64,000 nucleotides of DNA from Amoebophrya sp. A120. Taxonomy: Eukaryota; Protista; Dinoflagellata. The notes under the pieces were generated by a model, which saw nothing but the letters and a program-made list of their open reading frames with translations, ran no database searches and was not told the DNA's origin. The position numbers and the translations under genes are program-made. Below, piece after piece: positions 7,901 through 26,118 of the stretch. The stretch is from positions 2,776,485 to 2,840,484 of the forward strand of contig CAJINV010000011.1 of the NCBI GenBank assembly GCA_905178155.1, given 5' to 3'. Positions within the stretch are counted from its first letter, which is position 1; each line of letters opens with the position of its first letter.

Positions 7901-10779
7901 CGCCACTGTTCTCGTGGTACTCGCTTTTGTATTTCCCGCAAAATGCGGTAGTCATTTTCGTCGAGTTCAAAAATGTTCTTGTAGATCTGGTTCTTGCCGT
8001 GAAAATCCACAATGATACTCCCGTCGTGCCCCTGGATTGCAGGCGGTGCGTCGGGACGGCAACTCTGGGAGAGAAAGCACTTCTTTTGCAGTTCGAGCCC
8101 CGTCAGATTGGGTCCGAACTCGGTAGCCGTGTTTTGATCGAATCCAATGCAGTATGGTTCTCCATCGACGGTAGTAAATTTGTATGGTAGAATTGATCGT
8201 CGCAGAATCTTCTTGGTGGCTCCGCCAATCCCCTGGGCCTTCTGCTGTTTGCACTCCTCGACTGGCACCTCCAGTCCGTTCTCAAGAGCACGCTCAGTTC
8301 CTTTATCAGCAGTGTCTTCTGTGATGTACCCGTTGCGGTTGTAGCCGTTGTCGATCTGCGACTTGTGAGAATCCGTCGTGAAAAGAACAAGCTCATTTTT
8401 AGTTGAAGATGTAGAGTTCTCGTATGGTTCCGGACTGTTCTGGGAAACTGCAGGCTCGGAACAGGGAAAATTGTGTGCGCGTCGTACTTCTTGATTGTTG
8501 GCACTTGTCAAAATTTCCTCTGCGATCGTCAGTACTTCGAAAGCAGCAGGTTGAGACTCGTCTCGAGCGTACGCGGCACGGTTCAACACCTTGTTTACAA
8601 AGCTGTCTACACAGAAATCGGGTCGGAACTTTTTCGGCGGCTTCTCTTCCGATTTGGTTCCTTTTTCAAAATTTTGATTTACAATTTCCGACGGCGAGTT
8701 TTCTACTGGGGTCCGGGCCCATCCGATTGGAAATCCTCCCGGACCGAAAAAACAGAAAGTCTCTTCCTCGTCGTGCCCCAGTCCGTGCACTTCGCAGTTG
8801 CGCAAGCACGTCTCCTTCTCCCGCTCGTTGTCTGGCTCGTTTAAGATGAACGCCCGTTCCTCATCTTTCTTGTTCACGCAGACCAACAAAACGGTATCCA
8901 GGTCTTCTCCGGCTTTGGCGAGCTGGTCCAAAATCACAGCAATTTTCTCCAGGTGACTCTGGTTCTTGAAATCACTGCCCTCCATGATCTTGGCCAATTC
9001 GTCTTTCTTCGGACCGTCCTTGCAGTCTTTCCTCATGTGCTCCTTAGAGAAACAGATGGAGCAAACGTTGGTGTCAAACTCGCAGTCCTCCGTGCGGTGC
9101 TTGGTTGACAAGCATTTCCGGCAGCGGATTTTCCTCGGAGCTCCTTTCTGCCCTCCGAGCTTGCGATTGTTTGTCATGCGCTGCCCGTTCTTGGTGGTAT
9201 TCATTCTTCCAGAGCCCCAGCTTCCAGTCTTCTTCTGGTTGTACGCCGTCGGCCACCGACCGGTACGCTGCTTCGGGTCGAAGTTGATTCCACTCTTACC
9301 ACCTCCGGCTTTCGCCGCCAGCACTTCCTCATCGTCCGATCCCCCTTCGGGATTTTCGTCCGGATCGTCCTTTGTGACAAACGCAGCATCCCCGAGACCA
9401 ATTTCCTTTTCGACGGCGTCACCCGCGTGGAAGTGCAACACCTCAATTTCTTCCCGCTTCTCGAGGTACTCGAGCAGGCGTTCCAAGTGCGGGACATGCG
9501 GCGTGCGCCATTCGACGTCCAGCATGAAATTGGTGGTGATATGCTTGGGCCAGTGTTTTCCACTGCGCATCTGGAACTGCTGCCAGGTGTGCTTTCGCTC
9601 CGCGTGCGATCCACCGGTCAGCTCCACACCAACGTCTTCCGCCGCCTGGAAGTAGCGTTGCAGGCACTCGCGCGGAGTTTCGTCCTTCTTCATGGAGAAG
9701 TTGTAGAAGCGGCTGTTTTCTTCCTTTCCACGGATGAAGCCCGATTTGTACTTGGAGTACATCACCTGAATCAGGTTCCGGAAAGTCAGCGTCTCCCGCT
9801 TGCTGCGGTTCAGCTTCCACTGCCGCAGCTTCAATTTCATCCCCTCCTTCATGCACCGTGCGAACTTCGACGCCTTCTTTGCGTCCTCGTCCAGTTTGTA
9901 GACCAGCTCTTCCACAAACTGCGACTCGTATTCGAACGGGAACAAACGCCTCACTCCATCCGACTCACGGGTGAGTTTCTTGAGGTAGGACTCCATCGCA
10001 TTGAACCAGGAGAACAGGTTCGAGTGGCTCTCGATGGTCGGCGGGGGAAAATCCGGCATTCGATCTTTCATCGTCAACACGTAGTGCGCCGGTGCGGATT
10101 CTCCTCGTTCCAGCCGAATCCCGTGCTCCAAGCAGTAGTCACTTTCAAACTGCATGCGCGTGAAGCGGAAGAGGTCATTTTCCATGATGCCACGATACTC
10201 GTCACCCCCGTGCGAGGATCCTCCTCCTGACGACGGGTCTCCACCGAAACCACCACCGTCTCCACCGTGGCTGCTCCAGTCACCGCCTCCACCACCGTTC
10301 GGTGATCCACCGGATCCGTTGCTTCCACCGTGGCCGTTTCCACCGGATCCTCCATTGGATCCGCCGTTACCGTTTCCACCGTGGTTTCCACCATTCCCGT
10401 TTCCACCGTGGTTACCACCGTTCCCGTTTCCACCGTTGGATCCGCCGTCCGGATCTCCATTTCCATTTCCACGTCCGTTTCCGTGGTTGTTCGGTTCGTT
10501 CTGGTCGTTCCGCAGGTCGGCAAACGGGTTGTTGGTATTGGACTGACGCGAACCGCCGCTTTCCTCCTGATTGAAGCGGTACAACTCACCAATGGTCAGG
10601 GCCTTGGTGATCGGGATTTTGTTCGCCCCGGTAGCAGCGTTCGCATACCTATTTCCCGAGCCGTGGTCTTGGCGCTCCTTTTTACCTGAGAATTTTTGGT
10701 CAAAAGAGACGGACTTATGGATGTTCCCATTCTCGTCACGTCGGCCATACAACATACCCGCCTTGGACATGTTGGGCAT
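1951..10779 (-). CDS. Gag-Pol polyprotein (Gly-rich N-terminus, 2 CCHC knuckles, putative protease, DUF4326-like insert, integrase, RT, RNase H)
   Basis: Uninterrupted ORF (open to 10869, first ATG 10779). Knuckles CRKCLSTKHRTEDC and CSICFSKEHMRKDC; protease-like IDNG; integrase-like MDTT...YADAG...LERRF; copia RT DVPRAFL, SLYGLREAALMW, LHVDDLL; RNase H DASF...SAEVEAI...ISDSKSAV...NPSDVFTK. Confidence 0.93.
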   Translation of the reverse strand: MPNMSKAGMLYGRRDENGNIHKSVSFDQKFSGKKERQDHGSGNRYANAATGANKIPITKALTIGELYRFNQEESGGSRQSNTNNPFADLRNDQNEPNNHGNGRGNGNGDPDGGSNGGNGNGGNHGGNGNGGNHGGNGNGGSNGGSGGNGHGGSNGSGGSPNGGGGGDWSSHGGDGGGFGGDPSSGGGSSHGGDEYRGIMENDLFRFTRMQFESDYCLEHGIRLERGESAPAHYVLTMKDRMPDFPPPTIESHSNLFSWFNAMESYLKKLTRESDGVRRLFPFEYESQFVEELVYKLDEDAKKASKFARCMKEGMKLKLRQWKLNRSKRETLTFRNLIQVMYSKYKSGFIRGKEENSRFYNFSMKKDETPRECLQRYFQAAEDVGVELTGGSHAERKHTWQQFQMRSGKHWPKHITTNFMLDVEWRTPHVPHLERLLEYLEKREEIEVLHFHAGDAVEKEIGLGDAAFVTKDDPDENPEGGSDDEEVLAAKAGGGKSGINFDPKQRTGRWPTAYNQKKTGSWGSGRMNTTKNGQRMTNNRKLGGQKGAPRKIRCRKCLSTKHRTEDCEFDTNVCSICFSKEHMRKDCKDGPKKDELAKIMEGSDFKNQSHLEKIAVILDQLAKAGEDLDTVLLVCVNKKDEERAFILNEPDNEREKETCLRNCEVHGLGHDEEETFCFFGPGGFPIGWARTPVENSPSEIVNQNFEKGTKSEEKPPKKFRPDFCVDSFVNKVLNRAAYARDESQPAAFEVLTIAEEILTSANNQEVRRAHNFPCSEPAVSQNSPEPYENSTSSTKNELVLFTTDSHKSQIDNGYNRNGYITEDTADKGTERALENGLEVPVEECKQQKAQGIGGATKKILRRSILPYKFTTVDGEPYCIGFDQNTATEFGPNLTGLELQKKCFLSQSCRPDAPPAIQGHDGSIIVDFHGKNQIYKNIFELDENDYRILREIQKRVPREQWRRPVFAKKVKTDPKGKYTTEFDYDTTTISQYEKLARKTEVAREAAQFAVEEDEFVMRVCEVDELDFDTQYATAELQREKERCTEEHVAAALDAEVVCQEISLVNLNKHNCRWTDRQSIKKWESSSPDNVYIGRGSNFGNPFLVGVHGNRREVCELYRKWLYSSGTIAEAKLLLPGRTIGCWCWPKECHGQVLIDEINRSRREGAEELAAPGQEAEPEQAAPDQHGGGSSSRAVPRALRNPDPLFNANQEEDDSLWTVTAEELRRTGDSGGYGVYRVIDYGLDRVPATPDFLQNRVRLRRVVDVRRQSRAAPDMRNDWSNQQLLNSRPLISGGKDRHISVDWYFHLADDAASSRTVAQKAHAFRLRGLLSNESRPTVRQIQEKIEYGEVGKGVMKSGAHQKNKPGEVLIKSKLQIPEKLDKVKVYTCRHVNDLPIPMRHAGKRIRVEEEPAIQEMLQEQPGLRVSNGDKRIRTGFHQELIDAISDDYIKSVVTMMRNQPKKKLVLIDSTGFGLATAVGERLRVAGHGNEALHASAMRELYVQGSTLLPNGEAVRYSQQEQTRVDATTSCLADLSEEERRKLRAVQEILSISGKIANEKACLQQCRGRLKNISEEKLRELVLLMRRDSRANLHYGLKKRSKHLDGFDLCVAMEEGGLSLMDTTFITESDVIYTVIGVMSVPDKRSGSFVCGTKWKLQRMLQGQDVTEEEKEMICDGIMLQLHHGLGARLMAGRGSPSKEDVMRAVYYFLQQKLIRKRIYADAGLENLSLEEWIALQKSGRVVSLLPTGTPVYMLERRFLTIKMMCKRLRRIPAFMHLPLEILLNEIHECLANLPSIAKGGKTSAMEFWGIEEYNPEFVVHPDDVAVRGFEGDQTAYRINRLSEARARIWSEALGLLSDRAFINEVEKVLASCSARQRLDNENLLQIGDRANMHQPKIKEDSIVTIVDKEVSKGAFGVVYTVKGKKGFSKVNPNMITPITHQDLYCDRILSELPPISADDFKRGGKLYESQRKYESERAEYEAELKAPHMASTHDGGEPFWDASNSPRGGARSAKERKGSIMQLEDDDEQAEMDQLQDDDGNLSLDVEDDVRHDNNVEQENRDELFPTAESAPEDASENGFWNSFFNVAATESVHAANEGKDPMVKNTQWSTAFEQEPELPEDKESEEVPKDFKEVCEFIRFPSRKNRRTLEKVISRTPAGVLKDTELLHQMVERTLFAKYEDVRLSPASLELYDGFVEEEHRTGLSHPEVQSEHLLAWNQDRVSFVKSRKEWEEKGKGKVLRVVMWRLLPLSSYEDLGLISIFDKRASRHPELIRKIEAALKYPDCDHSFIESESGLGIPALYIKAHVKEWSGMFKQDLITVYRPGMLCSSERVLPSRALCDLKLITPWHFKVAIRLVPGGHMSSVSASAESPTIGEYDINLMINSLRYVRGKRVAKSGDVPRAFLRNLRFKEENRPRFAFPNGLYNEELLRTLRSEFGIGKETIFLMKISLYGLREAALMWCRTLSQFLESIGYRMSPDSPCVFVKGKNKVALHVDDLLFCGEEEAWKWLAQKLKERFSLETWTDAESGLVYTGIHVQHYPAEQKVRTHMLHKIKELLGIDFEGDATQILTPALITKLKGARGSLLFIARRHVECKFPTRSMALGADELKTNEWLAGTNGITQRLKHETSGIVFDLSYEREVLMMLPDASFQHPTAKEQAEQAQQCEEKQDEEFDARPEWVFDAEELEERREFARELDAGTLRAGSLEEAFSLMQKSETERRKRKRYAAVVIPTNEKDATTAAALRMRPVLGHLLLSVSADDFEKYLAEQKAVKRVMTLAEYDQLQKMKLRCSYLGSDTIFCATAKGSSYSAEVEAIAEAFPILGMVLRKYFAWRISAKSYIISDSKSAVTRILSKSVIATADADVFKPLAKIKDAFFRSEWQMGSITDRANPSDVFTKTATGYKMQEFLKLLSGEFNIPFGQLFVFERKHTWEKPLRQTETKI

Positions 10780-10847
10780 GAGTTTCGCGGAGTCTTTGAG
10801 ACCAACGCGCTCTGATGGCCTCTGTGGGCCGGATTTCTGGGAATTTC

Positions 10848-10864
10848 CTAGGAAAAAAAAAAAA
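10848..10864 (-). promoter_or_regulatory. Putative 3' (trans/cis) splice acceptor for gag-pol
   Basis: Minus strand T12-CCTAG|G, 68 nt upstream of the first gag-pol ATG. Confidence 0.55.
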
Positions 10865-13491
10865 TGCAACTTTTTTAGCCGCCCGAAGCCGCGCGACCAC
10901 GGCCCCCCTGTTCCGTGCCTAATCTAGTCTATCAGCCTGATCACACATGTAGCAAGCCCCGACCTGTGCGTCGCCGCAGAATGTGATACTGCGCACGCAG
11001 TTTGTGCTCGCACATTTTAGTGCGAGCACAGCAATGCATCACTGACAAAAAAGCTGTAAAGTGTGTTCCGCCATCGCATCACGAGATGATTAGATAGATT
11101 TTTTTTTTGAGAGAAGCACAACTAAGGATCTAGCTACATCAGATATTTAGTTTAGGTGTAAGAGTCATCGCGTTTGGTTTCGTGTCGTGGATCCGCAACC
11201 TGTTATGTGTTTTGGTGTATTCCGCGCCGCCGGTCCACGAATCGCTCCCACGTCCCCGCGTTCGCGAGTCCCTTGTGCATGCAGACGCAGCTATCTCACT
11301 GTGTCTGCGAATCGCGTTCCGACACCGCGTCTTCCCGTCGCAGCCATCGTCTGCCAGCCAAAGTCCCGTCGCCCCGTCCGCCAGCTCCACCGCCCCGTCG
11401 TGGCTAGTGCCATCTTTCCGTCAGCCACTGTCCCGTCGCATCCACCATCTGGCAAAGCCGCCAGTTCGCGAAAAACTTGTTGTGCAAAAGCAAGTTCGCC
11501 GTCGCGCGGCCGCAGTACAGCATCCACGTCAGCTGTCTCCGCACCGTGGTAGCTGCGTCTCCTCCACCCCAAAGCTGCATCGCCCCTTGACCCGCGATCG
11601 CCGCGGTAGCTGCGTCTCCTTCGCCCGAAAGCTGCATTTCCGTATCCATCTTGCCACTCCCATCCTACCGCCCGATGCGCGTCCACTCCCAGCTCCCAGT
11701 TCGCAGCTTCCCGTCGTCCTTCGTGGCACCCCGTCTCGCTGCGTATCCGTCAGTCCGCAACTCCAATTAACGCGTTGAGGTGATGGTCTCCTCTGCTAGT
11801 ACTGCGTCGCTGAAGCGCAAAGACGATGAACGGCAAGTAGCACGCAAGTCCTCATGATTGTATTTTGTTGTGCGTGTGAGGATGTAGCGGAAGGTGAGTG
11901 TGCTACTTGCAAATATGAAATAAAATACAACCTACAAGGCGCGATGTGTAAAATAAATGTCGACTATGTGTGTGTTGTGTGTAGTGTAAATATAATGTTC
12001 AAAATGTGCAGTGTCTATGTGTTCTAAGGCATTAGAAATTCCTGAACTTCTACCCCGCCCAGGGAGGCGGCGGCTGTGTGCAGCCATTTTGCATGTTGAA
12101 CCTTAAGTCACACAATAGATCAAAACATCGAGATCATTCCACGACCTAACCACGTGGATAGGCGGACCACCACCACGCTAAAGCACGCTCACTCCACCAA
12201 CAACGTCGTACTCTCACTGCCTGTTTTGCTTCCTTCGCAACCTTTCCGCAGAGGTTCAGAAGCTTCCTATCTCGCTGTGTTCAACCACGCCTCTATCTGT
12301 CAAGCCGCGCGATGCAAAGCGCGGGGGATCCACAAAGCGCGTTTCTATCTTTCCTCTACTCTCCATCGCGCCTTCATTCTTCGTGGCTGTTTCGCTAATT
12401 CTACACAGGGACTTTCGGGCACAAGAGGCTGAAGTGCGGCCGTTCAGATTACAAATGCAGACGCAACGACCGACGCGTGTCTCTTTTCGCGGCCGTCATG
12501 AACTTCTTTATTTGTAGGCGACGACAACCGAATATGCATGTAGGACGTCACGCGACGCCCTGGCACTTACTGCGCCGCATCTATGTATGTCTATTTTCAA
12601 TTTGTATTGAGTCTACCGATCCGGAGAGTCCCGTGGTGGGGTGTAGCTTGCATAAAACCGACGACAAGTCTTCGAAACTGGCATCGCCACAGCCTCATCT
12701 TCTTGCCTTCAACGTGCTACCATACTGGTGCTAAAGCTTCAACCGACTGCGCTGCACTTGTCTTTTATTTCGCAAGCTATCCTACGGGCAGACCGACTGC
12801 GCTTTCTCTGTTTTGTTTCTTCGGCTGCGAGCAATCTTATACCACAAGCCATTTCCGCATCTGTTCTTCATTTTTTTTCATAATCCCGTAGTGCAACCTC
12901 TTGCTTACTTCAAAAAGCTTTTGCAGCTGATCGTCGCGCTTAGAGGTCTTTGCAATGCACTGAAAAAGAACTTTTATTTAATAGTGCCACGTCTCCACAT
13001 TCCCGTTGAAGTAGAAATTTATTCACTATATGCTACTTCTAAAAATAAACTGATGTTCCCCGCACGCTATGTAGAGACTCCGCACCTCCTTGACGCGGAC
13101 ACTATTAACTCAACATGGCTACAGACAGTACTCGGAATCTGCTCACTTCCCATCTGTAGCAGCTCTGCACTACTACCTCCGCCGTAGTACAAAGCAGGTG
13201 TAAAAGACATTTTTTGTCACAAACCTGCATGTGTTTCCAAAGGCAACGCATACAGGCTCGTGACGGAAAATAGATATCAGTGTTTTCTATGTGAAAAAAA
13301 TAGGCGTAAGCCGATAGTTTCCACGTAGATAGAAGTGTGATTGTGGTGGTCTCAAAGGGTGTACAAGCTTTGTATTGCGACTTTGATGAAACATAAAATC
13401 ACAGTATAAGTCTTACAGTTTGATATGCCAGCAAATCAACTAACATCTATTTTCGAAAGCAACTGACAACTCGAATTCCTTCTTCTTTCAT

Positions 13492-16487
13492 CTACTCTTC
13501 GTCACTCTCCTCAACATCATTCTGGACGGGCGCGGCCGCAGCGTTGTTGCCCATGTTCAAGCCGGGGAGCGCAATCCTGCGTCGCTGAGCCGGGGGTCCC
13601 GCATTGTTGTTCGCATTCGCCGGCGCGGCCGGAGCCGGAGCGTTGGCCATGATCTCGCGGCACAGGGACTGCTTGGTCTCGGGCTCCAAAAAATCAAAGT
13701 CCAGTCGCAAGCCATTGCACAGGTTCAAAGCGGCCTGGTGCTGACCTGATTTGAAAAAATAGAAGCGTATATTTTTTCAACATCAATTGTACAAAATTTT
13801 TCCGCTTTGCGTCACAATTGCCACGACGTCTTCTCTTCCTACCTTCATGTACAAAATCAAAGTCCTAAAAAGCACGACATTATTGTACCCGCCGCCAAAG
13901 CCGTCCGGATCCCTTCGCACGACTGCTCCTGCACCATCTCGGTGAACTTCATGTACAGCTTCTGGACATTTTCCTGCAACGACGGAAAGGTCGGAAAGGT
14001 GCGCTCCATCAGCGAGTTCCGCCAGCCCAGCACATCACGCGCGATGTTGGCCTTGTTGCAGGTGTCGAAGTCGACGTACACGGTGATGAACGCAGTCATG
14101 ACCTGGTGCAAGGGCTTGATCAAGTGGCGGTCACCCAAGTCCAAGGCACGCAGTTCCGCAGCGATGTTGTTCAGCTCCGGGGTGCCGACGCGATTCGCGA
14201 ACTGGCCCTTCGCCAAGTCAAAGGTGCTGCACAACGTGTTCATCTTGCGGATCAGGTCCTTCATCTCGTCGCTCATCCGGACTTCGTCGAGGCGCAATAA
14301 CTCGTTCCGCAGGCGGGTGCTCAACTCCGCAGTAAAGGCAGCCGGAACTTTGGTGTGGGGGGCGAAGACCTGGTTGACAGCGCGGTTGCGGAGCAGCTCC
14401 AACGAGATCATCACGGCGTGCGGGGTATCCAGGGCCAAGAACGTCGTGATGTCGGTGCAAGCCTCTGCGAACCACTCCGTGGCCTGTTATTTGATATTTG
14501 GTTTCTTTACCATGAAGTAGTGCAATTTGTCGTGCTAATTTGTTATACAGTATCTTTCTGGTGATTTAAACACACAAAACTTCCACTGTTGTATTTGTTT
14601 CTCCGATTTATATGCATGCTAAGGCACTACTTCATGCGAAACCAAATCACAAATACCAGATGCTTGATGCACAAGATGTTGTGCCCCAGCTCGTTGCGGC
14701 AGGCGGCGCGCCAGACCAACAACTCCGGGATGTCCGAGGTCTCGAAGGCCCGCATCAGTTCGTCCACTTTATGAATGGGAAAGTAAAGCCGCAAGCCAGT
14801 TTTGGATGTGATTGCCGAACTTCATTTTGCATGACAAATATCTGAGGTCATGCGTAATGTACTGGATTAAAACATGCGAACACTTTAAAACATACAAGAA
14901 TAGCAAAGCCCCGATGTCCTGCTGTTCACAAAAGTCGACTCTTTTGGGCGGAGTAAATGATGCATCTTTGGTGATCACAGATGCTGGCTTGCGGCTTAAT
15001 TTTACATCTCATATACGGTCAGCATGTGCAGCTGCGAGTCATTCAGCAGTCCCACAACCTTGGTCTCGATCTTCTTCTGCAGCTCCACAATCGCGGCGCG
15101 ATTCAGGGCCTGGTATAGTTTTGCCATGTTTTGTTCGACATTTGTGTTGTTCGCATCGCAAGATTAATTTGCATTGTCTATCTACTCCATGTGCGGCTAG
15201 AATGGCATGATGCGATTACAGATCTAGCACCGATGTCACGCAAAAACTTCAAATCATTCCACTACAGATGATGAACCAAAATAAAAACAGGTATTACGTC
15301 CGACAACTGGCTCCAGATCAGCTCCTGCGGGGAAGCGTTCTGGCCTCCGGCCGCACCCGGACCCGTCAGAATGTTGGCGGTGATGAATTCCTCCAGGTCG
15401 CAAACGGTCTCATTTTGCAGCGCCAGCTGCACGGAGGTGACGGCTTGGGCGACGTCCGTCAAGGGGGTATTTCCAGTGCAGTACACACGGCCCCGGGAAT
15501 GACGCCTTTGTTTTCACACGTTCATGACCCCGCAAAAACCTTGATTTTTTGCATTACAAGTTCTTGCATGATCGGACGGTGCCAGAAATAGACATTAGCA
15601 TGTGAAACCAGCATGACAAGTCTGTAAGCTCTATACCACAGAGAAAAGTCCTTCAAGGTGCGGGCCGTCACGCCACCCTGGCGACGAAACAGACTTCCGG
15701 CCATCAACGCGTGGATCGCGGCGCGCTCGATCAAAATCTGGGCCTGCACGTCCGTGAAATGGGGGAGGACCTTGCAGCAGACGGCTAAGGCCTTCGTCGA
15801 AGACAACTCGTCCGTCACCGAGCGGAAACGACTCTCGAGATGATTCTGTTATGTTTTACAGGGCAGATGTATGTTTGTCATCTAAAGCCACACACTTTTG
15901 CATCACAAATTCAATTGCGCATGCATAAGTAAACTCCAAATGCACAAAACAAAAATTTTCAGTACTCCAATTCTCATCTGTTTCTCACGGTCTAAACCCT
16001 GAAATTCCGCATCTGTTAATTTCATGCATTCCGTGTGGATTTTGTCGGTGCGGACATACATACACAGGCAGCGGATGGCGGGGGGCAACATCAGCAACGC
16101 GCGGGCCACCGTTCTTTCGTAGGGGCAGGTCAAGACGTTCACTTCGTCCAGCGACAGGCTGGCAAGGTGGTCGGTGCGCGAACAAAGCTTCGTCTTTTGC
16201 TTACCCTCGTTCTTGTAGACCTTACCGAGGGCGTCCAGGAGGTTAGCGTCGGCCTGTGCAAGACGTTCAGTGTTGATGCCATGAAGTTTAAATTCACAAA
16301 ACCAGATCAAATAGGACATAAAGTCCCACTCATCGTCTTGTAAATACACCATCTTGTCCTAAAGTTCGCTGTCTAGAAAAAACAACTTTACCTCTAACCC
16401 AGTCTGCTGCGCAAAGGCCTGCACGACCTCGCTCGTATTCTGACGCTGCACTTGGCGGCGCTTCGGAGCAGCTTTTGCTTCCGCCAT
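13492..16487 (-). CDS. Multi-exon cargo gene, unknown mostly helical protein (~600-700 aa)
   Basis: ATG 16487 (MAEAKAAPKRRQ). GC-rich exon blocks at ~16350-15970, 15850-15620, 15500-15300, 14770-14660, 14485-13890 and 13745-13492 are separated by AT-rich segments carrying GCATGACAA-type motifs. Boundaries approximate. Confidence 0.65.
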
Positions 16488-16784
16488 CTTGAGATCAAAG
16501 ACCAGTAGAAATCTTAAAAGGAATTCGAAGTAGTTGCGGCTGCGGTTTGGTCGTGAAGTGCGTACTTTTTTCGTGAACTTGCAACAAATGGTCTAGCGCT
16601 ACACATAAAGCAAAGAAACCGACGCGCTCAAAGAAAAAAAAACACTCTTCCAGTCCCAAGATCTGAAATGCAGGCAATTTCGTGTCTTATTTGATGTCTT
16701 TTCAACGATGATCGTGTGTGTGCTAGCAGATTGTTGAAGTGCGTGCTTTTCCTTTAGAATTTTCAACAAAATCGCATCCCTTAG

Positions 16785-17458
16785 GTCTGAAACTACACAA
16801 AGATGCTTTTCCTGCGGAGCTGGAACACACTTGAAGATTGCCACGCACAAGGCTGCCGTCGACGCGAAAGCAGCAGTAGCTGCTGGACAAATCAGGTCAG
16901 TTATTATGTTGTTGCTTTTCATGCTACTACTCGACTGTACAAAATTGCAGTGCTTCACTATACAGAGTTTACTACTTGACGCTGCGCCGTTTTATGGTGT
17001 AAAGCATGCACATAAGAGCCAGATAAGCGCCTTGCTTCATCTTTTGCACAAACAGCACGCACTTTTTTGATTCCCTTTGTGTTTGCCTTATGTTCTTTTC
17101 TATGTTGTGACTTCCTTTACTCCCACTATGTATGCTGGTATGAACTGTGTGTTTTTTTTTACAACTATGCTTTACTATAGGTTTCTTACTTGGATATACT
17201 TCTCTATTACTGTAAAAACTATAAAAATCAGCTCATCTCGCAGCAGAAGGCCCAGGCTCCAGTCGAGATTCACCGCGTCGAACATCGAGGTCAATTCCAG
17301 ACGGACCAGGCCCCTGGTATGGTAGCGGTGAAGGCCTCGCTGGTGGTCGTCGTCTATGCCGACGTCACCAAAGGTCACCACAGCACGGCGTCGTTGGTAC
17401 CGGTCACGCTGCACTTCCACCGCGAGACTGAGCTGGCAAAGATTGAAACTATTTGGAG
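16785..17458 (+). CDS. Small spliced cargo gene of unknown function (internal exons only)
   Basis: Exon-like blocks with AG/GT flanks: ~16785-16895 (RCFSCGAGTH...) and ~17232-17458 (LISQQKAQAPVEIHRVEH...IETIWR). Start and stop not resolved. Confidence 0.4.
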
Positions 17459-17996
17459 GTAAAGTACTACTAGTACGCGCTAACTTTGTAGATTTATTCG
17501 TCCGAAACACTATTAAGATCATACAGAACTTGTTCATTTATTTCTTCAATCAAAAGGTCACTTTTTTCTACAAATCTTGAGACTTCGGAGAGACACAAAA
17601 AAGTTATTTTTCGAGCAAAAAAAGTTGTCATTTTGTGAGGAATAATTAAGAAATAGTTAACTTTTGGATTTTGATACAAGAGTTATTTTTCGAGGTCTCA
17701 AAAAAGATACTTATGGAAGAGCTAGATACACTTACAGGAGATTTTCTGGAGGGTCTCAAAAAAGATATTTATGAGGCCTCGAAAAAAGATAATTACTTGG
17801 CCAGTGGACGTCCATGAGGTTGTCCGAGAGGTGTCAGACAAAAGTTATTTATGAGATATTCTGGAGACGAGAAAAGTTGGACAATTCTGATCATTTTCTG
17901 TAGTCAAAAGTTTGCTCTGAATCATACAAGTCGGCTGAGCGAGATTTCTACTTCGAAGATGTAATACAACTACAAAACAGTTCGTCCGCGCATCGA

Positions 17997-20900
17997 TCAC
18001 GACGTGGTGGAGGACGACGCTGCCGCCACAACAGGCTCATCGTGTTCCGCGATCGCTGCGAGCTTCTCCTTCCGCAGTTGCCGTTTGGATTTGCCCACCC
18101 GCTCCACCATCAACTTTGCCAAGTCCTTTACGTCTGCACCAGCCGATTGGAAGTCGAACCATGTGCCGGACCTGTTGCTCGGATTCAAGCACCGCAGCGT
18201 GTTGTCGTCGATTTCCAATTCCCAATCGAGATCGGCTTTTCTCTGCTTGTTGCCGTGGACCCGCCCCTCCGCAAACGCCTTCACCTCAGCCATGTAGGCC
18301 ACGTAGTCCAGTTTCAGCTGCGCCAGTTCATCGTCGCTGCAGAAGTTGTCGTACTGAAAGCCCCGGTGGCCCTTTTCGATGATGAAGCGCGTTCGGACCG
18401 CCCACACACTGAGGCACGCGTCGGTCCAGAGTGGTCCCTCTTGCTCCCCAAATCTCATTCCCCTTCCGGCAATTCCGCCTCTGCTACCGCAGTGAAAATC
18501 GATGTTCGGGTTCTTCAGTTGTTCCTTCATCTTTATCTCCAAGGCCTTGTCCAAGCACTTGATCTCCAGCCTGATGGAATCGCGACCCGTAGTTTTCTTA
18601 TCGCCGATGTTACTTGCTTCTCTGCATTTAAAACCGTCAATGCGCAGCGGCTCTAGTCGGTTTGAGGTGTCCAGACGAGCGCTCTGGTGCAACTTGTATT
18701 CTTTGCCGCTGATTTGTAGAATTTGTGATGCGGATGACACTGATTTCGGCTGCGACTCCATCACGGACTTCTGCGTGCTGCCTTGGGTGAAAGCAGCCTG
18801 GCTGCTTGCTACGTCCAATGCGTCCGAAGCTGCTACTTCCGCGCGGATTGGTAACGCGACGACTTTGTTGTTGTCCAACACGTATATTTTGTCCTGCGGT
18901 CGTGGCGCGCACGACGACATCGCGGTCGGCAGCAAAAACTTGCTAAAATTCTCCGTCATTTCCGCTTTTTCCACATTGGTTGCAGTTGTCCACGCTTCCT
19001 GGATCACGCTCTGCTTTCCGGGTACTGCCTTTACTTTCTTCGCAGCTGCAGACAGCACCTTCACCTCGTCCCCGCAGTACATAAACGGCTCCGCTACTTC
19101 GTCTTGCGCGTTGAGTTTCAGCGCGAAAAACCTACCGAGCTGGTCCAGGTCGTAGTCAGAAGCTGCTTGCGCGTCGCTGTGCAAGCACTTCCCGCCCGCG
19201 ATCTTCATCTTCCTCTCCCACCAGTTCTCTTCTCCGCTTAACATCTGCAGGGGAATTGCTTTGAAAGACGCGGGGCTCAGCACCACATCACAGCAGAGGA
19301 AGGGCTTCCATCCCTTGATTTTTTTGTCGTAGAAAACCGAAATGATGTACGGCGAGAGCAAGGTGCACACGTCTTTCATGCCGGCGACGTGCTCTTTCAG
19401 CGAAACAGCCTCCTCCTCTTCCAGTCCGTCTTCTTCCGGTGCCTCCTCATCTTCTATGCAGTGAAAGCATTTCAAAATGTAAGCGGTGATGCCGTTCTTG
19501 CATGTGTTTGTCATGCTACAGACGCTTCGCAGCGTCGCGTCGAGATTGCGACGCGCAATACAAATTTGACACAGCAAAGCACGAGGCTTTGCGTTTTCTC
19601 GTGCCATAATTCTCTCTGCAGTTTGTATTTGTGGTTGTGCTAACCGCTTGCAAAATTGAAATGTTTTCATTGCATATCCTCCACGTCGTCATCCGCCGGC
19701 GCCAGCTTCAAAATGTCCAGTTCCCCATCTGCGATGTTCAGCGCTTTTTTCTTTTCCCGAAGCTCCTTGACACGCGCGCGACGAGCTCGCAGATAGCGGG
19801 CGATGAGGACCGCAGCAGCGGGTTTATTCTTCGCGGTGACCGTCACAGCCGGCGGATCAGTTGTCTGCACTTCTTGCTGCGCTCTGTTGCATTGTTGTGG
19901 AAGAAGTTTGGTAAAATCCCCCTTCGTGTGCAGGTACGCCTGCAGGCAGTCAGCTTCGACGTCGCGGTAGAATTTATCTTCCACGGAGCAAGCGTTGTAG
20001 TCGCGGATCACCTCCTCCTCGTCGCTACTAGCCTCTACCGCCGGTTCGGCTTCAAGCTCCTTTTTCCGCTTCACCTTGTCCTCCTCCGCGGCTAATAAGA
20101 TGAAGGTATTTCGTTCATCGCGGTTCTTCCATTTGTTGTTGCTGGTGTTCTGCTGCAGCACCTCCTGCTGCGTCGGCGGCTTCGCAGGTTCTACCCAGAC
20201 ATGTCGCCGCTTGCAGTCTATTCCGCGGGTGCAAGCGTAGCGGCTTTTCGTCACTGCCGCATTGTCCTTCGCGTCAGTTTCTGTGCCATCTCCTTCGTGC
20301 AGCTTCAGGTCGTACTCCGCGTTTGCGTGTGCGGCTTGCCAGTCCGCCCTATTTAGGGCGGAGTCTGCACCTGGTATCGACTTCGTTCCTCCTTTTAGTC
20401 TTAATATGCACTGCAAAACGTCCACCCTGCATGACAGATTGATGCGTCGCTATTGTTTTACGATCTAGATGCGCCTCGTCCGGCGGTACAATGCGTTACA
20501 TGTTTTTGCAAATATGCACGGCGAAATACCTGCACTCTGCACCGCAAGTGGGCGCACAGAGCCACGGCGATGTCGTCGTGGCGTTGTGGCGTGCTTTCTC
20601 TTGGGAAATATGCATGACATCGTTGCCACGGCAAGAATTAGAAGACGTGCCGAAAATGCATGAAAAAACTCAATCTGTCATGCAGAAAATCGCTTTGCAC
20701 TTCATATGTCTTGTATGAAACTTGAAGCGGCCACCCCGTCGTTCGCAGTTTTTGGTTGTTCTATTCCGTACGTCGAGAAAGTTGACAAGGTCTTGCATCC
20801 GGGACTGCCGGTCCTCATCTTCCAGTTGGTTGCAGTACCGCTGCACCGAGTGCAGCGATGGCCATCCCGGGTCGTCTTTCATGTACGAACTGAAATTCAT

Positions 20901-22840
20901 CTTCTTCAGGGCTTCGGTGGCTGCAGGAAGATCAGCAAGCGCAGCTGCCAACCAGGTCTCGTGTACGTCGCATTCTCCATCGCGGTATAGCAACATGCAT
21001 TTCGCGGTAGTTAGTGCAACCAAAGCGGAAATTCGTGCGAATTCTATCTGTTTTGTATTTGAATTTTGCATAACAAACTGTGCTGCATGATCACAAAACG
21101 CATGACAAGTTGTTGGAATTTTGGTGCTAGTTGCGAAAGCATTTAAATTATACCAGCTCCTTCTGCTCCGCGGAGAACTCTACTCTCCCCACTGCTATTC
21201 CGCATAGCAGGTACTTGAGATCCGTCTCAACGTCTTCGCGGGATTGCAAATACTGCCTCGCCTTTTTCAGATCTTCTCCCAGTGCCTCCCGCAGTTTCCG
21301 CCTGCTCTTCTCGCCGTTAGTGCCCGCCAGCAGGGAGGCGCTATAATGTTCAATTGGTGCAATTACTACTCCGAGGCGCCAACTCACCAACATGAACATG
21401 AATTCACTACCTGATTTTTTTTGCGTTCCATGCGATTTTGCATTACAAATTGGTAGCTTTTCATGGTGCAGTGCAATTCTATGCATCACAAGTTTGCATT
21501 TTCATAGAAGGATAAAAGTGAACAGGTGCGTCTGCATAAAATGAAAAAAAGAATACCTGTGTTCGACCCCATGTTGATTGCAAACCCATGCTCCAGCACC
21601 TGTTCCGCACCAAACGTTATCCGGCTGCCGAGGCCGACAAAAAGCCGGGCCATGAAGCATCCCAGGCAAATCGATAGTTGTCCAATCGCCGCGAGGACCG
21701 TTAACCAGCGGGTCCAGACGGGAGGTCTAAACCCGCGGCAAAGGGAGTGCAAGCTCCTCATGCACTGTGCCTGGCTCGCTTTCGGCACGACCAACACGGC
21801 CTCGGTGGGGGAACAGCGCCGAAGAAATTTCTTTTTTCCTTCGTCGAGGTGGCAGCGGTCCAAGAAGGCGTTGAATTTCGCATCCACCGGTCGCGGTTGT
21901 TGCCCGTCCCACGGCGCGATAATCGACAACAACTTATCCAGCTCAAAGTGGATTTTTTCTTGCAGCAATTTGATGGAAGTGACCTGCGGATTTGTGATGC
22001 GAAAGGTAAGAAAAATGTCTATGAAAATTGCATCAGAAATTGAATTTGTCATGCCGAAGAAGTCACGCCGGAAAATATGCATTGCAAAGATTACAGTACC
22101 TGTAAAAACAACCGCTTCTGCCACCCTTGCGGGTCTAAACCCATGCAGGCAAGGTAGGTTTCGGCGACGGCTTTGGTCACCAAGGCACACTGGTGGTTTT
22201 TGCACCTATCACTCCAAAAAATGCACTTCGCCAAGGCGGGCGAGGCCATGAACCAGGAGCCCAGGTAGAACAGAGTACTGATCGTCGAACCCCCACTGTC
22301 CGTACTTGGTGTGTAAATTTTCACAGTCTGGTCGGGGTAGTTCTGGAAAAAAATTTCCGGCGGAAACAGCGACCAGATCATGTCCGCGACTTCAAAGCCT
22401 TCACTCCATCCTCTGAATCCACTGCCGACCCGTTTCTTCTGGGAGAAGTCGCTGCTACTGGGAAACATTACTGTGTGGCACGGTAGCAGGGCGTGTCCCA
22501 GCTTGGTCATGTCGGAACCGCAGGAGAATGTCACCATGGCGAAAATCAGCATGATGTGTGCAAATATTTTTATGCGGCCCTTGATGCTGTTCTCATAGAA
22601 CATCGTCTGCGTAGTTGTGCCGTCAACCTCGACGCGGAGCTGCACGACGCTGTACCGCCAGTCGCGAAACGTGTCCTGTGCGCGATTGAAGGCGCACTCC
22701 ACCAGGATAGCACACAGCTTCCATAGTTTCCGCGGGGCCAAATAGGCAGTAGAATTGAAGAAGGTGCTCACCTCCTCTCGCTGTTCTTTCTCCTTCTCCC
22801 GGGCTGCTGCTTCTTTATTCGCCACAATTGCCGCCTTCAT
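17997..22840 (-). CDS. Multi-exon hAT-like DDE transposase with long C-terminal extension (~1200-1300 aa if all exons join)
   Basis: Motifs in hAT order: VEVDGTT (D), STDSGGS (D), RCKNHQCAL (CxxH), PVWTRWLTV (RW), RTTKNCERRGG (E). GT-AG introns at ~21985-22099 and ~21344-21557. Removing introner 19455-19676 joins ORFs 19667-20425 and 17997-19670 in frame (VEDEEAPEE). The 20430-20700 junction is unresolved. Confidence 0.55.
19455..19676. mobile_element. Introner-type intron inside the cargo gene
   Basis: TATGCAGTGAAA...TTTCATTGCATA termini, imperfect 5-bp direct repeat TCTTC/TCCTC; removal restores the frame. Confidence 0.75.
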
Positions 22841-23671
22841 ACTGCTCCTTCCGGTACTACTGGCGATCGCCTACCGACAGCACGCGATCTACTGCTCCGC
22901 CTGCTCCGGACTGGTTTCCGCTGTTCTCAGCCGCTTTGCCCCCAGCTAGAGGCTCGAGACACAGTTCTCGAGATAGTGCAAACACGATGACTCTCTAGCT
23001 TAGTTGTGCTTCTTCGTGATACGATGGCGGACTAGTTATTTTGTAGCTATAGGCGGAGATACTTTTTTATTTCGGGTCCTGGTGTTGCGATAGCATGTAC
23101 TTTTGCATCTGCTACTAGCGATTGTAACGGCAGTAGCTACTCTCATCGCGCATGAGAAAAAAAAACACTTCGAAATGAAATAGCGAAAGAAAAACCACCT
23201 CACACAAGAAAAAAACAACAAAAAAGTCATCGCGTGGTCGTGCTAGATAGCTTTGGAAGATTCTACTTGCAGTGCGTAAAAAAAGGACCGAGCTCATCTA
23301 TCGATCTACGATAGCGGGGAGACATCTCTCGCCCCACCACGTAAGTGCTGGGGGGTTTTCATCATAGAAGGTTCAGGCTTGCTACATGTGATTGCTGTGC
23401 ATCAGGATGCTCTTCCGCGGAGCTTCATGTGCTAGATACAGAAATCAAATCGCTCTAGACGGGCTGGCAGGTCGGTGCTAGATCTAAAAACGCGACTTGA
23501 TTTCTGCAAGGTAGTAGCCACACTCTTGAATTTCTCCCGACCCAGCACCGACCCTACGACCCAGCAGCCACTTCTCGTCTCTTTCCTTTCCCCCACCCCG
23601 TCGTTCGCTTTTCCCCCTTTCTTTGCTACCGCTCTCTTTCACTACCTTCAGCTGCGAGGACATCGGGAAAC

Positions 23672-23775
23672 AAAAAAGTCCGACATCGGGATTCGAACCT
23701 CGAGTCAAAAACTTTTTGACTCGAGGTTCGATGAACAACCCTCCCCTCTTACCAACTCGCCCAAGTGGGCGAGTG
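23672..23775 (-). ncRNA. tRNA-like Pol III unit 1 (A box, B box, T6 terminator)
   Basis: Minus: CACTCGCCCACT-TGGGCGAGTTGG (A-box-like)...GGTTCGAATCC (B box, 23689-23699)...TTTTTT; perfect 18-bp hairpin at 23693-23731. No canonical cloverleaf. Confidence 0.55.
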
Positions 23776-23935
23776 TTAAGAAACTATCATCGATTTCCTA
23801 GCACTTAACATGCTGAAAATGCATGTTGTTGGTAGTGGGGCGTCGAGTTGTCTCCGTGCGCCGATTTCGATCTTGCCTGCTTTAGCACTGCTAGTGCGAA
23901 ATGCAGGGAAGATCGAAGTCGGCGGATCCGGAATC

Positions 23936-24039
23936 AAAAACCACCGACATCGGGATTCGAACCTCGACCCAAAATAATCCCCGCTTTTGCGGGGATGGAC
24001 AACCTCCCCCCCTTCCCAACTCGCCCAGATGGGCGAGTG
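23936..24039 (-). ncRNA. tRNA-like Pol III unit 2
   Basis: Paralogue of unit 1 with the same A box and the same GAGGTTCGAATCCCGATGTCGG, a different central hairpin (ATCCCCGC-AAAA-GCGGGGAT) and a T5 terminator. Confidence 0.55.
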
Positions 24040-24256
24040 GCAGACAAAGCGCATCGACGTCGTAGCCCCTATTGACGCAGTGCGATACGACGTCGATGCG
24101 CCTTGTCCCCTGGTTGCGCCCTGCATTGCGGCCTTTCTTTTCCCCATGCCGTTACGATGTAAACAACACGAGAACCCGGGCGACGGGTCGCGGGACGGAA
24201 CAATTCCGACGAGCAACCCGCCGTCCGTCGGAGCGTCGACTGCCCCGCGAAGGGTG

Positions 24257-24314
24257 AAAAGGGACTGCGAGTAGCAAGTCACGATATGGTACCTTGAGCC
24301 AAAATGGCTACGGT
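24257..24314 (-). ncRNA. Dinoflagellate spliced-leader (SL) RNA gene
   Basis: Minus: ACCGTAGCCATTTTGGCTCAAG (exact 22-nt DinoSL, 24314-24293), then a GT donor, a short stem-loop (GACTTGC-TACTC-GCAGTC) and TTTT; 58 nt total, the size class of dinoflagellate SL RNAs. Confidence 0.9.
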
Positions 24315-24374
24315 ACACGGAGAGTGTGTGGTTGCTCAGGTCGCAGTTGGCTGTGTCCTGCCTCACGAAGGGTG

Positions 24375-24435
24375 AAAAGGGACTGACGGAAACAACTAGG
24401 GGCCTTAACCGCTCGGCCAAATGGCCGAGCGAGTG
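24375..24435 (-). ncRNA. SL/tRNA-hybrid-like small unit 3
   Basis: Hairpin CGCTCGGCCATTTGGCCGAGCG and tRNA D-arm-like TGGCCGAGCGGTTAAGGC; shares the 20-mer CAGTCCCTTTTCACCCTTCG at its 3' end with the SL gene (24366-24385 = 24248-24267). Confidence 0.45.
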
Positions 24436-24780
24436 ATAACGTCCTCCGATCTCGGGGGCCGGAACGTCGAAAGTCGACGACCACCGTTCTCCGACGAGAA
24501 TCGAGCTAGGAACGATCTGAGTACTGATATCCGGAGCTTAGAAAGAGCCTAACAAAACCTCCGACAACCCCAAACACACCGGAAAACTGCCGAAACCTCA
24601 AAAATTTTTTTTCTTAGGAAATCCGGAAGAAAATCGGATGAAATTCCTCATCAGATGCGTCGGCCTCAAGAGTCTCGCCGGACGGATGTTTTCTCAAAAC
24701 CCTCCGGGTTGCGGTTTCCAAAACCCTTTCCGGTTCCGGTCATCTTGTTCTCGATGTTGCGCACCTTGTCGATCATTTCA

Positions 24781-26010
24781 TCAAGGTACGTTTTGCGCAT
24801 CGATCCCTCCTGGAACCAGTCTTCCTCCTCCTGACCGCTGACCAACTTCTGACTGTGGATGGCATTCATGATGAATCATCATCTTGGATTCCAGCAGCTC
24901 TTTCTGCTTCTCGGTCTCCTTTTCCAGTTTGGCGGCCATCTCACGCTCGAGCTGCAGCTTGATCTTTTTCTCGATTTCTTCCACTTGAATGAAAGAAGAT
25001 GCAGAAGAAGAAGAGGAGGAACCATTTGCTGCCCCCAGCTGTTCCTCGATCAAATGCGTCAAGTTGGCGGTGTTGTCCCGTCCCTGGACTTCCTCGATTT
25101 CCTTGAGGATGTGGTCGTGCTTTTCCGCGTCATGCTCGCGCTGCATCCGCTGTTCCTCACGGATGCTGCCAACCGCTGTCGCAAACCGCATCTCCATCGC
25201 TTCAAAATCTTTCTTCACCTCAGCTTTCTGTTCCGCCAGTTGCTGGGTGAACTTTTCCCCGAAAGAATTGAAGTTCTGATCAACGCGCACGAAAGATTCC
25301 TGGATCTTTTCTCCATCCTTCCGCAGTTGTTCCGCAGTGTCCGTCATCTGCTTTTCTTGGCCCTTTTGCAGCTGCAGCAACATGTCCATGACCTGCTTTT
25401 GTTCCTGCGTCTGCTGGTTCAAAACAGTTCCTGCGTTGACAATGCGATTGATCGTTTCTCCTTGCTGATTCTGGCGGTTGTTCAAATCCACTGCTGCACC
25501 TCCGACCTGGTAGAGCTGTTCCTCTTGTCCCAGCGCCTGGTCATTCAAGTAGTGGACCGCTCCGGCCAGAGTGGTTGCGCGATTGCGGAGTTCGCGCCCA
25601 GTTTCGATGATCAGCTCTCGATCAGAGACGTCGCTCTTGCTGCGTCCCCCTTTTCCGTAACTGGGCTTCATGTCGTGCTGTTTTCCTTTTCCGTACGGAG
25701 CCACCTGGTCGTCTCCTACACGGGCACGTTTGTAGTTGCCGTTGTACTGGGAATGATTTCCCTTACCGTTGTTTCCCTTCATCAACGGAGGCAGCACCGG
25801 GGGTTGTCCTGGCGGCGGCGGCGGAATGTTCTGGACCTTCACCATGGTGAAGCCACTTCCAGCAGTAGAAGTTCCGCTGGCAGAATTAATCCCGTCATCG
25901 CCGCTCGGTCCCGGACTGAACACCGGCACGATCTCGCTTTCCGTCGTGGTCAACACGGCGTCTAATCCTGGTGGGGAGCTCCCGCCCATGGATGCGTCGG
26001 AGATCGACAT
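24781..26010 (-). CDS. ORF1: Pro/Gly-rich N-terminus plus long coiled coil; probable frameshifted tail to 24666
   Basis: ~410-aa ORF just downstream of the PBS, rich in Q/E/K heptads; a more protein-like tail continues in another frame (24869-24666). Confidence 0.75.
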   Translation of the reverse strand: MSISDASMGGSSPPGLDAVLTTTESEIVPVFSPGPSGDDGINSASGTSTAGSGFTMVKVQNIPPPPPGQPPVLPPLMKGNNGKGNHSQYNGNYKRARVGDDQVAPYGKGKQHDMKPSYGKGGRSKSDVSDRELIIETGRELRNRATTLAGAVHYLNDQALGQEEQLYQVGGAAVDLNNRQNQQGETINRIVNAGTVLNQQTQEQKQVMDMLLQLQKGQEKQMTDTAEQLRKDGEKIQESFVRVDQNFNSFGEKFTQQLAEQKAEVKKDFEAMEMRFATAVGSIREEQRMQREHDAEKHDHILKEIEEVQGRDNTANLTHLIEEQLGAANGSSSSSSASSFIQVEEIEKKIKLQLEREMAAKLEKETEKQKELLESKMMIHHECHPQSEVGQRSGGGRLVPGGIDAQNVP

Positions 26011-26107: not shown

Positions 26108-26118
26108 CTCCGCTACCA
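26108..26118 (-). promoter_or_regulatory. Primer-binding site (initiator tRNA-Met type)
   Basis: Minus TGGTAGCGGAG 1 nt after the 5' LTR; complementary to a ...CUCCGCUACCA tRNA 3' end. Confidence 0.85.

What the first reader, a model, noticed from the sequence alone, without database searches (positions are those of the whole stretch)
10796..24669. Long-range complementarity that would mask the gag-pol splice acceptor in full-length RNA
Seen: 10843-10860 is complementary (17/18) to 24605-24622, and 10796-10817 to 24649-24669 (two differences are G-U compatible on the sense RNA). The first segment covers the AG and most of the T tract of the T12-CCTAG acceptor. Its partner lies upstream of the SL gene, so LTR-initiated genomic RNA contains it but SL-initiated RNA does not. 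Inference: a switch that protects genomic RNA from splicing while allowing SL-gag-pol mRNA. Alternatively a ribosome shunt, since the stem places the stop of the frameshifted ORF1 tail (24666-24668) about 17 nt from the gag ATG.
Basis: partly seen in the sequence, partly recalled or inferred. Interest (0 to 1): 0.75.

Follow-up and report, generated by a model that had tools for sequence, protein, structure and literature searches.

The report
Giant paired insert splits retrotransposon gene
In a jumping gene of what is likely a marine parasitic dinoflagellate, a 13.9-kb insert with a likely spliced-leader gene has ends complementary over about 100 bases and sits between two identical six-base repeats, so it is likely cut out of the RNA like a giant intron, which would rejoin two halves of the gene.

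Summary
The complementarity is real and larger than reported. The two matches are the ends of one 65-nt inverted repeat inside a young 25.9-kb Copia-type element of an Amoebophrya-like host. Five more nested helices lie inside (10944-11176 with 23390-22979). Over all eight, 99 of 104 positions are Watson-Crick, 4 are sense-strand G-U and 1 is A-C. An exact 6-nt direct repeat abuts both ends, the only such case among 1109 long-range helices. It is in the same codon phase in the ORF1 tail and in gag-pol, and coding signal stops there. Best reading (0.42): a TIR/TSD-bounded 13.9-kb insert split one long ORF and is likely spliced out like a giant introner; the acceptor masking would be a side effect. 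Rivals: SL-acceptor switch with an inner RNA bridge (0.25), unspliced nested element in a dead copy (0.20), shunt or hop (0.07). No reads, genome or DNA relatives were in hand, so splicing and covariation are untested.

The parts
26120..26600 (-). 5' LTR, 481 nt, TG...CA
   Evidence: 3 differences from the 3' LTR in 481 nt
26108..26118 (-). primer-binding site starting TGG, one base after the LTR (initiator-Met type, recalled)
   Evidence: sequence
24781..26010 (-). ORF1, 409 aa, Pro-rich then coiled-coil-like; no family hit
24666..24875 (-). ORF1 tail in the +1 frame, coding-like up to the direct repeat; stop lies in the first bases of the stem
   Evidence: codon model 14.0 in this frame vs -21.0 and -37.2; null -10.0 +/- 5.5
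24670..24675 (-). left 6-nt direct repeat AGACTC (TSD-like)
24291..24314 (-). 22-nt DinoSL-like exon plus GT donor
   Evidence: full 22-mer recalled, TCAAG end as in PMC7789003; no Rfam hit
23670..24040 (-). two Pol III-like units (A box, B box, T run; box identities recalled) among strong hairpins
   Evidence: not called by ARAGORN
23375..23390 (-). inner helix H3, left strand
   Evidence: 16 bp, -27.9 kcal/mol
22979..23031 (-). 53-nt continuous left strand pairing with four right-hand segments (H4, H5, H5b, H6)
11291..22840 (-). insert genes of unknown function, predicted multi-exon; no transposase detected
   Evidence: ab initio model allowing only GT-AG, no control
11067..11176 (-). right strands of H4 (11067-11084), H5 (11112-11126), H5b (11130-11133), H6 (11161-11176), with two 27-nt loops
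10944..10959 (-). inner helix H3, right strand
10796..10860 (-). right outer arm, 65 nt
10848..10864 (-). T12-CCTAG acceptor-like site; longest T tract of the 10 such sites found in the scanned 681-64000
10790..10795 (-). right 6-nt direct repeat AGACTC; its AG is the predicted 3' splice site of the giant intron
1951..10779 (-). gag-pol ORF (open from 10923; first ATG 10779), RVT_2 and DUF4326
681..1161 (-). 3' LTR; the element is flanked by a 4-nt TSD ATAT (677-680, 26601-26604)

Best explanation
The two matches are the outer ends of an inverted repeat that, with an exact six-base direct repeat just outside each end, bounds a 13.9-kb insert which likely split one long reading frame of a Copia-type retrotransposon; nested base pairing is predicted to close the insert's ends in the RNA, so that it would be spliced out like a giant version of the host's introners and rejoin ORF1 to gag-pol. 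Shown: the arms, the repeat, the shared codon phase, coding signal ending at the repeat, and the inner complementarity. Inferred: origin by insertion; that the duplex forms across 12-14 kb; that the host's non-canonical splicing removes 13,880 nt (simplest junction 24673 to 10794, AC...AG, ambiguous within the repeat). The T12-CCTAG site 54 nt upstream of that junction would be buried in the stem and so not compete. Whether the 26-kb composite moves as a unit, or the insert arrived after integration, is open.
For: Exact abutting 6-nt repeat in 1 of 1109 long-range helices, this one; 4 others only within -1..+2 nt. The tail is coding-like and 24665-24450 is not. Both arms are 65 nt, spacers 25 and 26 nt. 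Six local TIR elements have perfect 5-nt repeats, and 3 of the 6 offer neither GT nor AG at the junction (6 of 9 candidates). One of them (32817-33633) has the same layout, arms ending inward in A/T runs, and its removal opens 98 and 65 codons. Amoebophrya splices IR+DR introners with non-canonical ends and has annotated introns up to 35 and 90 kb (PMC7789003). Gene models P0001 and P0003 carry 461 aa ahead of the gag core, against about 190 from ATG 10779. Inner chain -90.1, against -40.4 next on the sense strand, -55.8 best on the antisense strand, and -59.3 best of 67 shuffled elements.
Against: No junction read was seen. The repeat is 6 nt and the ends TT..AA, whereas local introners have 5 nt and TA..TA. 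The published intron analysis covered 40-1000 nt. ORF1 reaches the junction only through a +1 frame switch near 24876. ORF1 similarity to the relatives' N-termini is weak: BLASTP E 0.004; 55 and 77 of 1000 local shuffles do as well; top of 207 ORFs only without bias correction; the motif scan gave rank 5 in one of three settings and no top rank in two. The exon structure of those models was not seen. An in-frame TSD follows from history alone and does not show present-day splicing. Five of the six repeat bases form an interrupted palindrome and can arise from stem extension. This reading does not explain the SL gene.
Confidence: 0.42

Rival explanations
1. Two-tier SL switch (first reader, extended). 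After an old insertion split the ORF, gag-pol is expressed from an SL joined at the AG at 10848. The outer arms mask that site in LTR-started genomic RNA. The inner helices, which lie downstream of the SL donor, bridge the 13,445-nt gap for RNAs that lack the outer arm.
For: AG pairing is 0.54 alone, 0.63 with the inner partners only, and 1.0 with the outer arm. The donor is 902 nt from H3 and H3 is 95 nt from the AG; ATG lies 68 nt after the AG. Longest T tract in the scan. The left-hand arms are split on either side of the SL gene. Mismatches are 4 sense G-U to 1. Cer1 full-length RNA skips its SL1 site (PMC3315495 passages).
Against: T runs sit in the same place in a host TIR element. The outer arm must stay free for 13.7 kb of transcription and is 0.46-0.72 paired locally. 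Predicted sense introns in the insert have no such mask. The repeat is intact though it would have no job. The G-U bias is weak: 3 to 1 without H6, which was found by a G-U-aware search.
Confidence: 0.25
2. An independent 13.9-kb TIR element with panhandle ends, its own SL gene and Pol III units jumped into this LTR copy after integration. It is not spliced out, the copy is dead, and the pairing serves the insert's own life cycle.
For: TIR plus 6-nt TSD. Predicted sense-strand introns persist in the insert, which is simplest if it never passed through reverse transcription. The LTRs differ at only 3 of 481 sites.
Against: No transposase or integrase found in the insert. The arms match in near-perfect blocks with very unequal spacers (83 vs 1214, 107 vs 343, 27 vs 0 nt), unlike the evenly similar TIRs nearby. 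No second copy of the ends in the window.
Confidence: 0.2
3. Ribosomes jump the stem on the unspliced RNA, either by shunt and reinitiation at ATG 10779 or by a matched-codon hop from one repeat to the other (T4 gene 60 style, recalled).
For: Stop at the stem base and ATG 17 nt past it. Matched Asp-Ser codons on both sides with a stop next to the take-off codon.
Against: A shunt needs a short uORF ending 7-8 nt before the stem and a UA-rich landing site, and reinitiation fails after about 50 codons (PMC5902531 passages). Here the ORF is long, its stop is inside the stem and the landing site is GC-rich. I recall no eukaryotic hop of this size.
Confidence: 0.07
4. Chance complementarity of low-complexity and palindromic words.
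For: The 18-mer alone has E 2.0 and contains an A/T run and a 12-nt palindrome. With loose chaining (1500-nt gaps) the sense strand is not far ahead of the antisense strand (-183.5 vs -154.5).
Against: 0 of 300 shuffles; 0 of 67 shuffled elements; 4 of the 9 long-range matches among the 25 best blastn rows fall nested in 10843-11126; unique abutting repeat.
Confidence: 0.01

Closest known systems
Amoebophrya introner elements (Farhat et al. 2021, PMC7789003; Gozashti et al. 2025, PMC12130899)
   Same: Inverted repeats at the ends, a direct repeat at the borders, in-frame removal, no transposase, same host lineage.
   Different: 13.9 kb against analysed introns of 40-1000 nt; 6-nt repeat against 3-5 nt; TT..AA ends; extra nested helices up to 1.7 kb inward; carries an SL gene, Pol III-like units and genes; sits inside a retrotransposon ORF. 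Splicing not shown.
TIR DNA transposons with cargo; TIR-flanked elements of unknown mechanism in Amoebophrya (PMC12130899)
   Same: TIR plus TSD around several genes.
   Different: No transposase or LTR-integrase homology detected in the insert; block-wise rather than even TIR similarity.
Long-range pre-mRNA pairings: RNA bridges, loop-outs, splice-site masking (PMC8052449)
   Same: Nested complementary regions near a splice site; predicted obstruction of an acceptor.
   Different: Span 12-14 kb, beyond that catalogue's 10-kb limit; inside a retroelement; conservation untested.
C. elegans Cer1 (PMC3315495)
   Same: An LTR element in a trans-splicing host whose full-length RNA must skip an SL acceptor.
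   Different: Cer1 is Gypsy-type and makes gag-pol from the unspliced RNA; the passages seen give no pairing mechanism and no element-borne SL gene.
Pararetrovirus ribosome shunt (PMC5902531) and long-distance RNA-RNA interactions of plant RNA viruses (PMC5893793)
   Same: A stem brings a stop codon close to a downstream start; pairing over kilobases.
   Different: No short uORF, no UA-rich landing site, far longer loop.

Membership tests
Amoebophrya introner element | inverted repeats of 8-20 nt or more at both ends | tested here: met
   65-nt arms, outer 20 bp paired
Amoebophrya introner element | direct repeat of 3-5 nt at the borders | tested here: inconclusive
   exact repeat but 6 nt; supplement legends count 3-8 nt, figures not seen
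Amoebophrya introner element | spliced out of the RNA | not testable with these tools
   no reads in hand
Amoebophrya introner element | repeated family in the genome | not testable with these tools
   no genome held; no second copy of the ends in the window
Amoebophrya introner element | short, non-coding interior | tested here: not met
   13,874 nt with coding-like ORFs and an SL gene
autonomous TIR DNA transposon | TIR and TSD | tested here: met
   imperfect TIR, 6-nt repeat
autonomous TIR DNA transposon | transposase gene | tested here: not met
   no hit in Pfam, PHROGs, NCBIfam or PDB sequences for the ORFs tried; one fold gave pLDDT 42; a divergent enzyme is not excluded
Ty1/Copia LTR retrotransposon (outer element) | paired LTRs TG..CA, TSD, PBS | tested here: met
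   481-nt LTRs, 4-nt TSD, TGG-type PBS
Ty1/Copia LTR retrotransposon (outer element) | RVT_2-type reverse transcriptase | tested here: met
   E 2e-10, above the curated cut-off
Ty1/Copia LTR retrotransposon (outer element) | integrase upstream of RT | tested here: inconclusive
   no Pfam integrase hit; a conserved block lies upstream of RT; motif read by eye
Ty1/Copia LTR retrotransposon (outer element) | polypurine tract before the 3' LTR | tested here: not met
   a pyrimidine tract at 1162-1201 instead
splice-site-masking long-range RNA pairing | duplex covers the acceptor | tested here: met
   predicted only; AG pairing 0.54 to 1.0
splice-site-masking long-range RNA pairing | acceptor is used; pairs covary | not testable with these tools
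   no related DNA found
pararetrovirus-type ribosome shunt | short uORF ending just before the stem; UA-rich landing site | tested here: not met
   long ORF, stop inside the stem, GC-rich landing

The most novel reading that the evidence does not exclude
The 26-kb composite is a working retroelement that carries its own spliced-leader gene and controls gag-pol with a two-tier, 12-14-kb RNA duplex: inner helices bridge SL donor to acceptor, outer helices hide the acceptor in genomic RNA or present the direct repeats for giant-intron removal. Alternatively the insert is a large, still undescribed mobile partner of Amoebophrya introners with an unrecognised enzyme.
Probability: 0.25. Interest if true: 0.85.

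Novelty: new variant of a known kind. Interest (0 to 1): 0.62.

Why it matters
How Amoebophrya removes IR/DR introns without canonical ends or a detected U1, and what mobilises them, are stated open questions (PMC7789003). A 13.9-kb member with about 100 bp of nested end pairing gives a single, precisely predicted junction at which to test whether end pairing defines the splice sites. A full SL gene inside a mobile element would also bear on where this lineage's leader comes from: that paper reports one complete SL-like coding sequence per genome, outside the spliceosomal cluster. If the switch reading holds, it would show how an LTR element keeps its genome intact in a trans-splicing host.

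Tried and rejected
No whole genome is held and no read data were in hand, so junctions, copy number and empty sites are untested. Related DNA: 0 hits for the arm pattern in viral contigs; 0 of 598, 134, 123 and 29 pattern matches confirmed in metagenome and viral contigs. Covariation therefore could not be run. Word-index protein searches found nothing for ORF1 (longer forms), the gag region or the 536-aa insert ORF. Atlas: no usable hit for ORF1; only weak 0.91 hits at low recognition for the 209-aa insert exon. Rfam and ARAGORN: 0. Pairing of the 3' pyrimidine tract with the purine tract near 23600 was rejected: 4 of 41 shuffles do as well. A PD-(D/E)xK-like motif in the 536-aa ORF (recalled) gave no verdict: pLDDT 42, so no fold search was run. 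A weak helix 11223-11234 with 22873-22884 is counted in the -90.1 chain but is absent from the co-fold. Loose chaining did not discriminate. Similarity of the arms to element 32817-33633 (1, 1, 7 and 1 of 300 shuffles) is largely due to the A run and is not taken as kinship. My notebook's 5-nt TSD for the LTR element was a misreading; it is 4 nt. Earlier-finding look-ups by place, sequence and words gave one loosely related note.

Full report
Setting. The finding lies in an LTR retrotransposon on the minus strand, 681-26600. The LTRs are 481 nt, TG...CA, and differ at 3 of 481 sites; the TSD is 4 nt and a TGG-type primer site follows the 5' LTR. A 2990-codon open frame (1951-10923) hits RVT_2 (E 2e-10) and DUF4326. 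The three good hits of 4 in a search of 1.84 billion representatives are gene models that their sources label Amoebophrya. The window also holds many short TIR elements with direct repeats. I therefore place the host in the Amoebophrya lineage. A 22-nt DinoSL-like exon followed by GT lies at 24314-24293 and is the only full copy in the window (the full leader sequence is recalled, its TCAAG end is in PMC7789003).

Observation. The inner one is 17 of 18. The outer one is 13 bp with 2 G-U, a 1x2 loop, then 7 bp. Alone, the 18-mer is within chance (E 2.0). Together they score 60, against at most 48.5 in 300 dinucleotide shuffles, and rank first of 248 natural windows. They share one register and form a single 65-nt inverted repeat with spacers of 25 and 26 nt.

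The pairing goes further in. A scan of all helices of 12 bp or more found 23390-23375 with 10944-10959, and a continuous 53-nt strand 23031-22979 that pairs with 11067-11084, 11112-11126, 11130-11133 and 11161-11176. The next sense chain scores -40.4, the best antisense chain -55.8, and the best of 67 block-shuffled elements -59.3. With gaps up to 1500 nt the score no longer discriminates. Over eight fixed registers, 99 of 104 positions are Watson-Crick, 4 are G-U on the sense RNA, 1 is A-C and none is a transversion. The bias is weak, and H6 came from a G-U-aware search. The whole co-fold favours the sense strand (-75.0 vs -48.9 kcal/mol gain). The right-hand spacers fold locally (z -3.45, 0 of 200 shuffles). 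Near-perfect blocks, each of different sequence and with very unequal spacers, point to selection on pairing of a single strand rather than neutral decay of a TIR. That step is inference.

The ends carry a TSD-like repeat. AGACTC abuts both ends (24675-24670, 10795-10790) and has the same codon phase in the ORF1 tail and in gag-pol. Of 1109 long-range helices on both strands this is the only one with an exact abutting 6-mer; 4 more have one within -1 to +2 nt. A codon model trained on gag-pol shows the coding signal switching to the +1 frame near 24876, running to the repeat (14.0 vs -21.0 and -37.2; null -10.0 +/- 5.5), and absent after the stop. Removing the insert and one repeat leaves one frame open across the junction. 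Caveat: five of the six bases are an interrupted palindrome, so part of the repeat could come from stem extension.

Relatives. In P0001 and P0003 the gag core starts at residue 462, against about 190 residues after ATG 10779 here. Their N-termini are Pro-rich and Gln-rich like ORF1. The sequence signal is weak: BLASTP E 0.004 with P0003 and none with P0001; 55 and 77 of 1000 local shuffles score as well; a two-sequence profile ranks ORF1 first of 207 window ORFs only without bias correction; an ungapped motif scan placed it fifth in one of three settings. These are gene models whose exons I could not see. They suggest, but do not prove, an ancestral single ORF.

Host precedent. Of 9 TIR candidates viewed, 6 have perfect 5-nt repeats and TA..TA ends; 3 were dropped for lack of a clear repeat. 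Three of the 6 offer neither GT nor AG at the junction; the large insert offers AC..AG. Element 32817-33633 has arms ending inward in A15 and T14 runs, the same layout as here, so the T12 need not be an SL acceptor. PMC7789003 describes introners with 8-20-nt IRs and 3-5-nt DRs, over 60% non-canonical introns, longest introns of 35 and 90 kb, and no detected U1. PMC12130899 reports TIR-flanked introners of unknown mechanism in this lineage.

Inside the insert. Between the outer arm and H3 lie the SL gene, two Pol III-like units and long hairpins. Between 22840 and 11291 an ab initio script restricted to GT-AG drew 4 genes with 14 introns on the sense strand; it has no control, so the count is soft. 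None of the ORFs tried matched a transposase (12, 22, 8 and 5 proteins). Sense introns in an LTR element mean either an unspliced genome or arrival at the DNA level.

Mechanism. The repeat, the phase and the end of coding make an insertion history likely. What expresses gag-pol now is inferred. I favour intron-like removal at the repeat (0.42), because the host has that machinery, it would work from the moment of insertion, and it explains an intact repeat. The AG is 0.54 paired alone, 0.63 with the inner partners and 1.0 with the outer arm, and the inner set would shorten the 13,445-nt donor-acceptor distance to about 1 kb. An unspliced nested element in a dead copy (0.20) fits the retained introns. 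A shunt lacks the short uORF and UA-rich landing site; with a hop it gets 0.07. The first two readings can coexist.

Literature seen. PMC7789003: abstract, sections 5, 11 and 31, passages and supplement legends; its figures S6 and S19-S25 are pictures I could not see and bear on the SL gene context and the repeat lengths. Passages only: PMC3315495, PMC8052449, PMC11282704, PMC5902531, PMC12130899, PMC11453091. Abstract and outline: PMC5893793. Ten searches (listings only for the other papers) showed no report of a dinoflagellate LTR element with an internal SL gene or such long-range pairing. The library lacks most subscription papers. The T4 gene 60 hop, A/B boxes and initiator-tRNA primer type are recalled.

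Verdict. A real feature, larger than reported and best filed as a new variant of a known kind: a giant, cargo-bearing, introner-like insert. It is not filed as a member of the introner family, because size is not met and splicing and copy number are untested. Interest 0.62.

Noticed in passing
window 1162-1201: No purine tract precedes the 3' LTR on the sense strand. There is a pyrimidine tract ending in a C run, the base-by-base complement of a usual PPT. Plus-strand priming is unexplained; its best internal partner is not beyond shuffles (4 of 41).
   Followed up: partly
window 23670-24040 and 24410-24431: Two Pol III-like units (A box inside a hairpin, B box, T run) and a third A-box-like hairpin upstream of the SL exon; a 20-nt direct repeat flanks the SL exon at 115-nt spacing. 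Not called by ARAGORN or Rfam.
   Followed up: partly
window 24291-24314: A complete DinoSL-like exon with GT donor inside a mobile element. PMC7789003 reports a single complete SL-like coding sequence per Amoebophrya genome; whether such genes sit in elements like this was not testable.
   Followed up: partly
window near 24876: The coding signal of ORF1 switches to the +1 frame; mutation, assembly error or recoding is unresolved.
   Followed up: partly
window about 7320-7540; P0001 residues 2891-2961: DUF4326 sits at residues 1130-1200 of the window polyprotein but near the C-terminus of relative P0001, so the domain has moved or been gained twice.
   Followed up: no
window 10844-10855: A perfect 12-nt palindrome spans the acceptor-like AG; it could also pair between two RNAs, like a dimerisation site.
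   Followed up: no
window 16492 and 28697 (minus strand): Predicted gene starts directly preceded by CTCAAG, resembling the leader's 3' end (relic SL or acceptor); seen inside and outside the insert.
   Followed up: no
window 17997-19607: A 536-aa single-exon ORF with several Cys pairs and an EIKC word recalling PD-(D/E)xK nucleases; no database support, fold of low confidence.
   Followed up: partly
window 29400-36500: A host SNF2-family gene (Pfam E 1.3e-24) interrupted by TIR elements with 5-nt repeats at 32817-33633 and 35486-35791.
   Followed up: partly
window 41411-42640: A 1230-nt element with 48-nt, 94% complementary ends of another type and no clear direct repeat.
   Followed up: no
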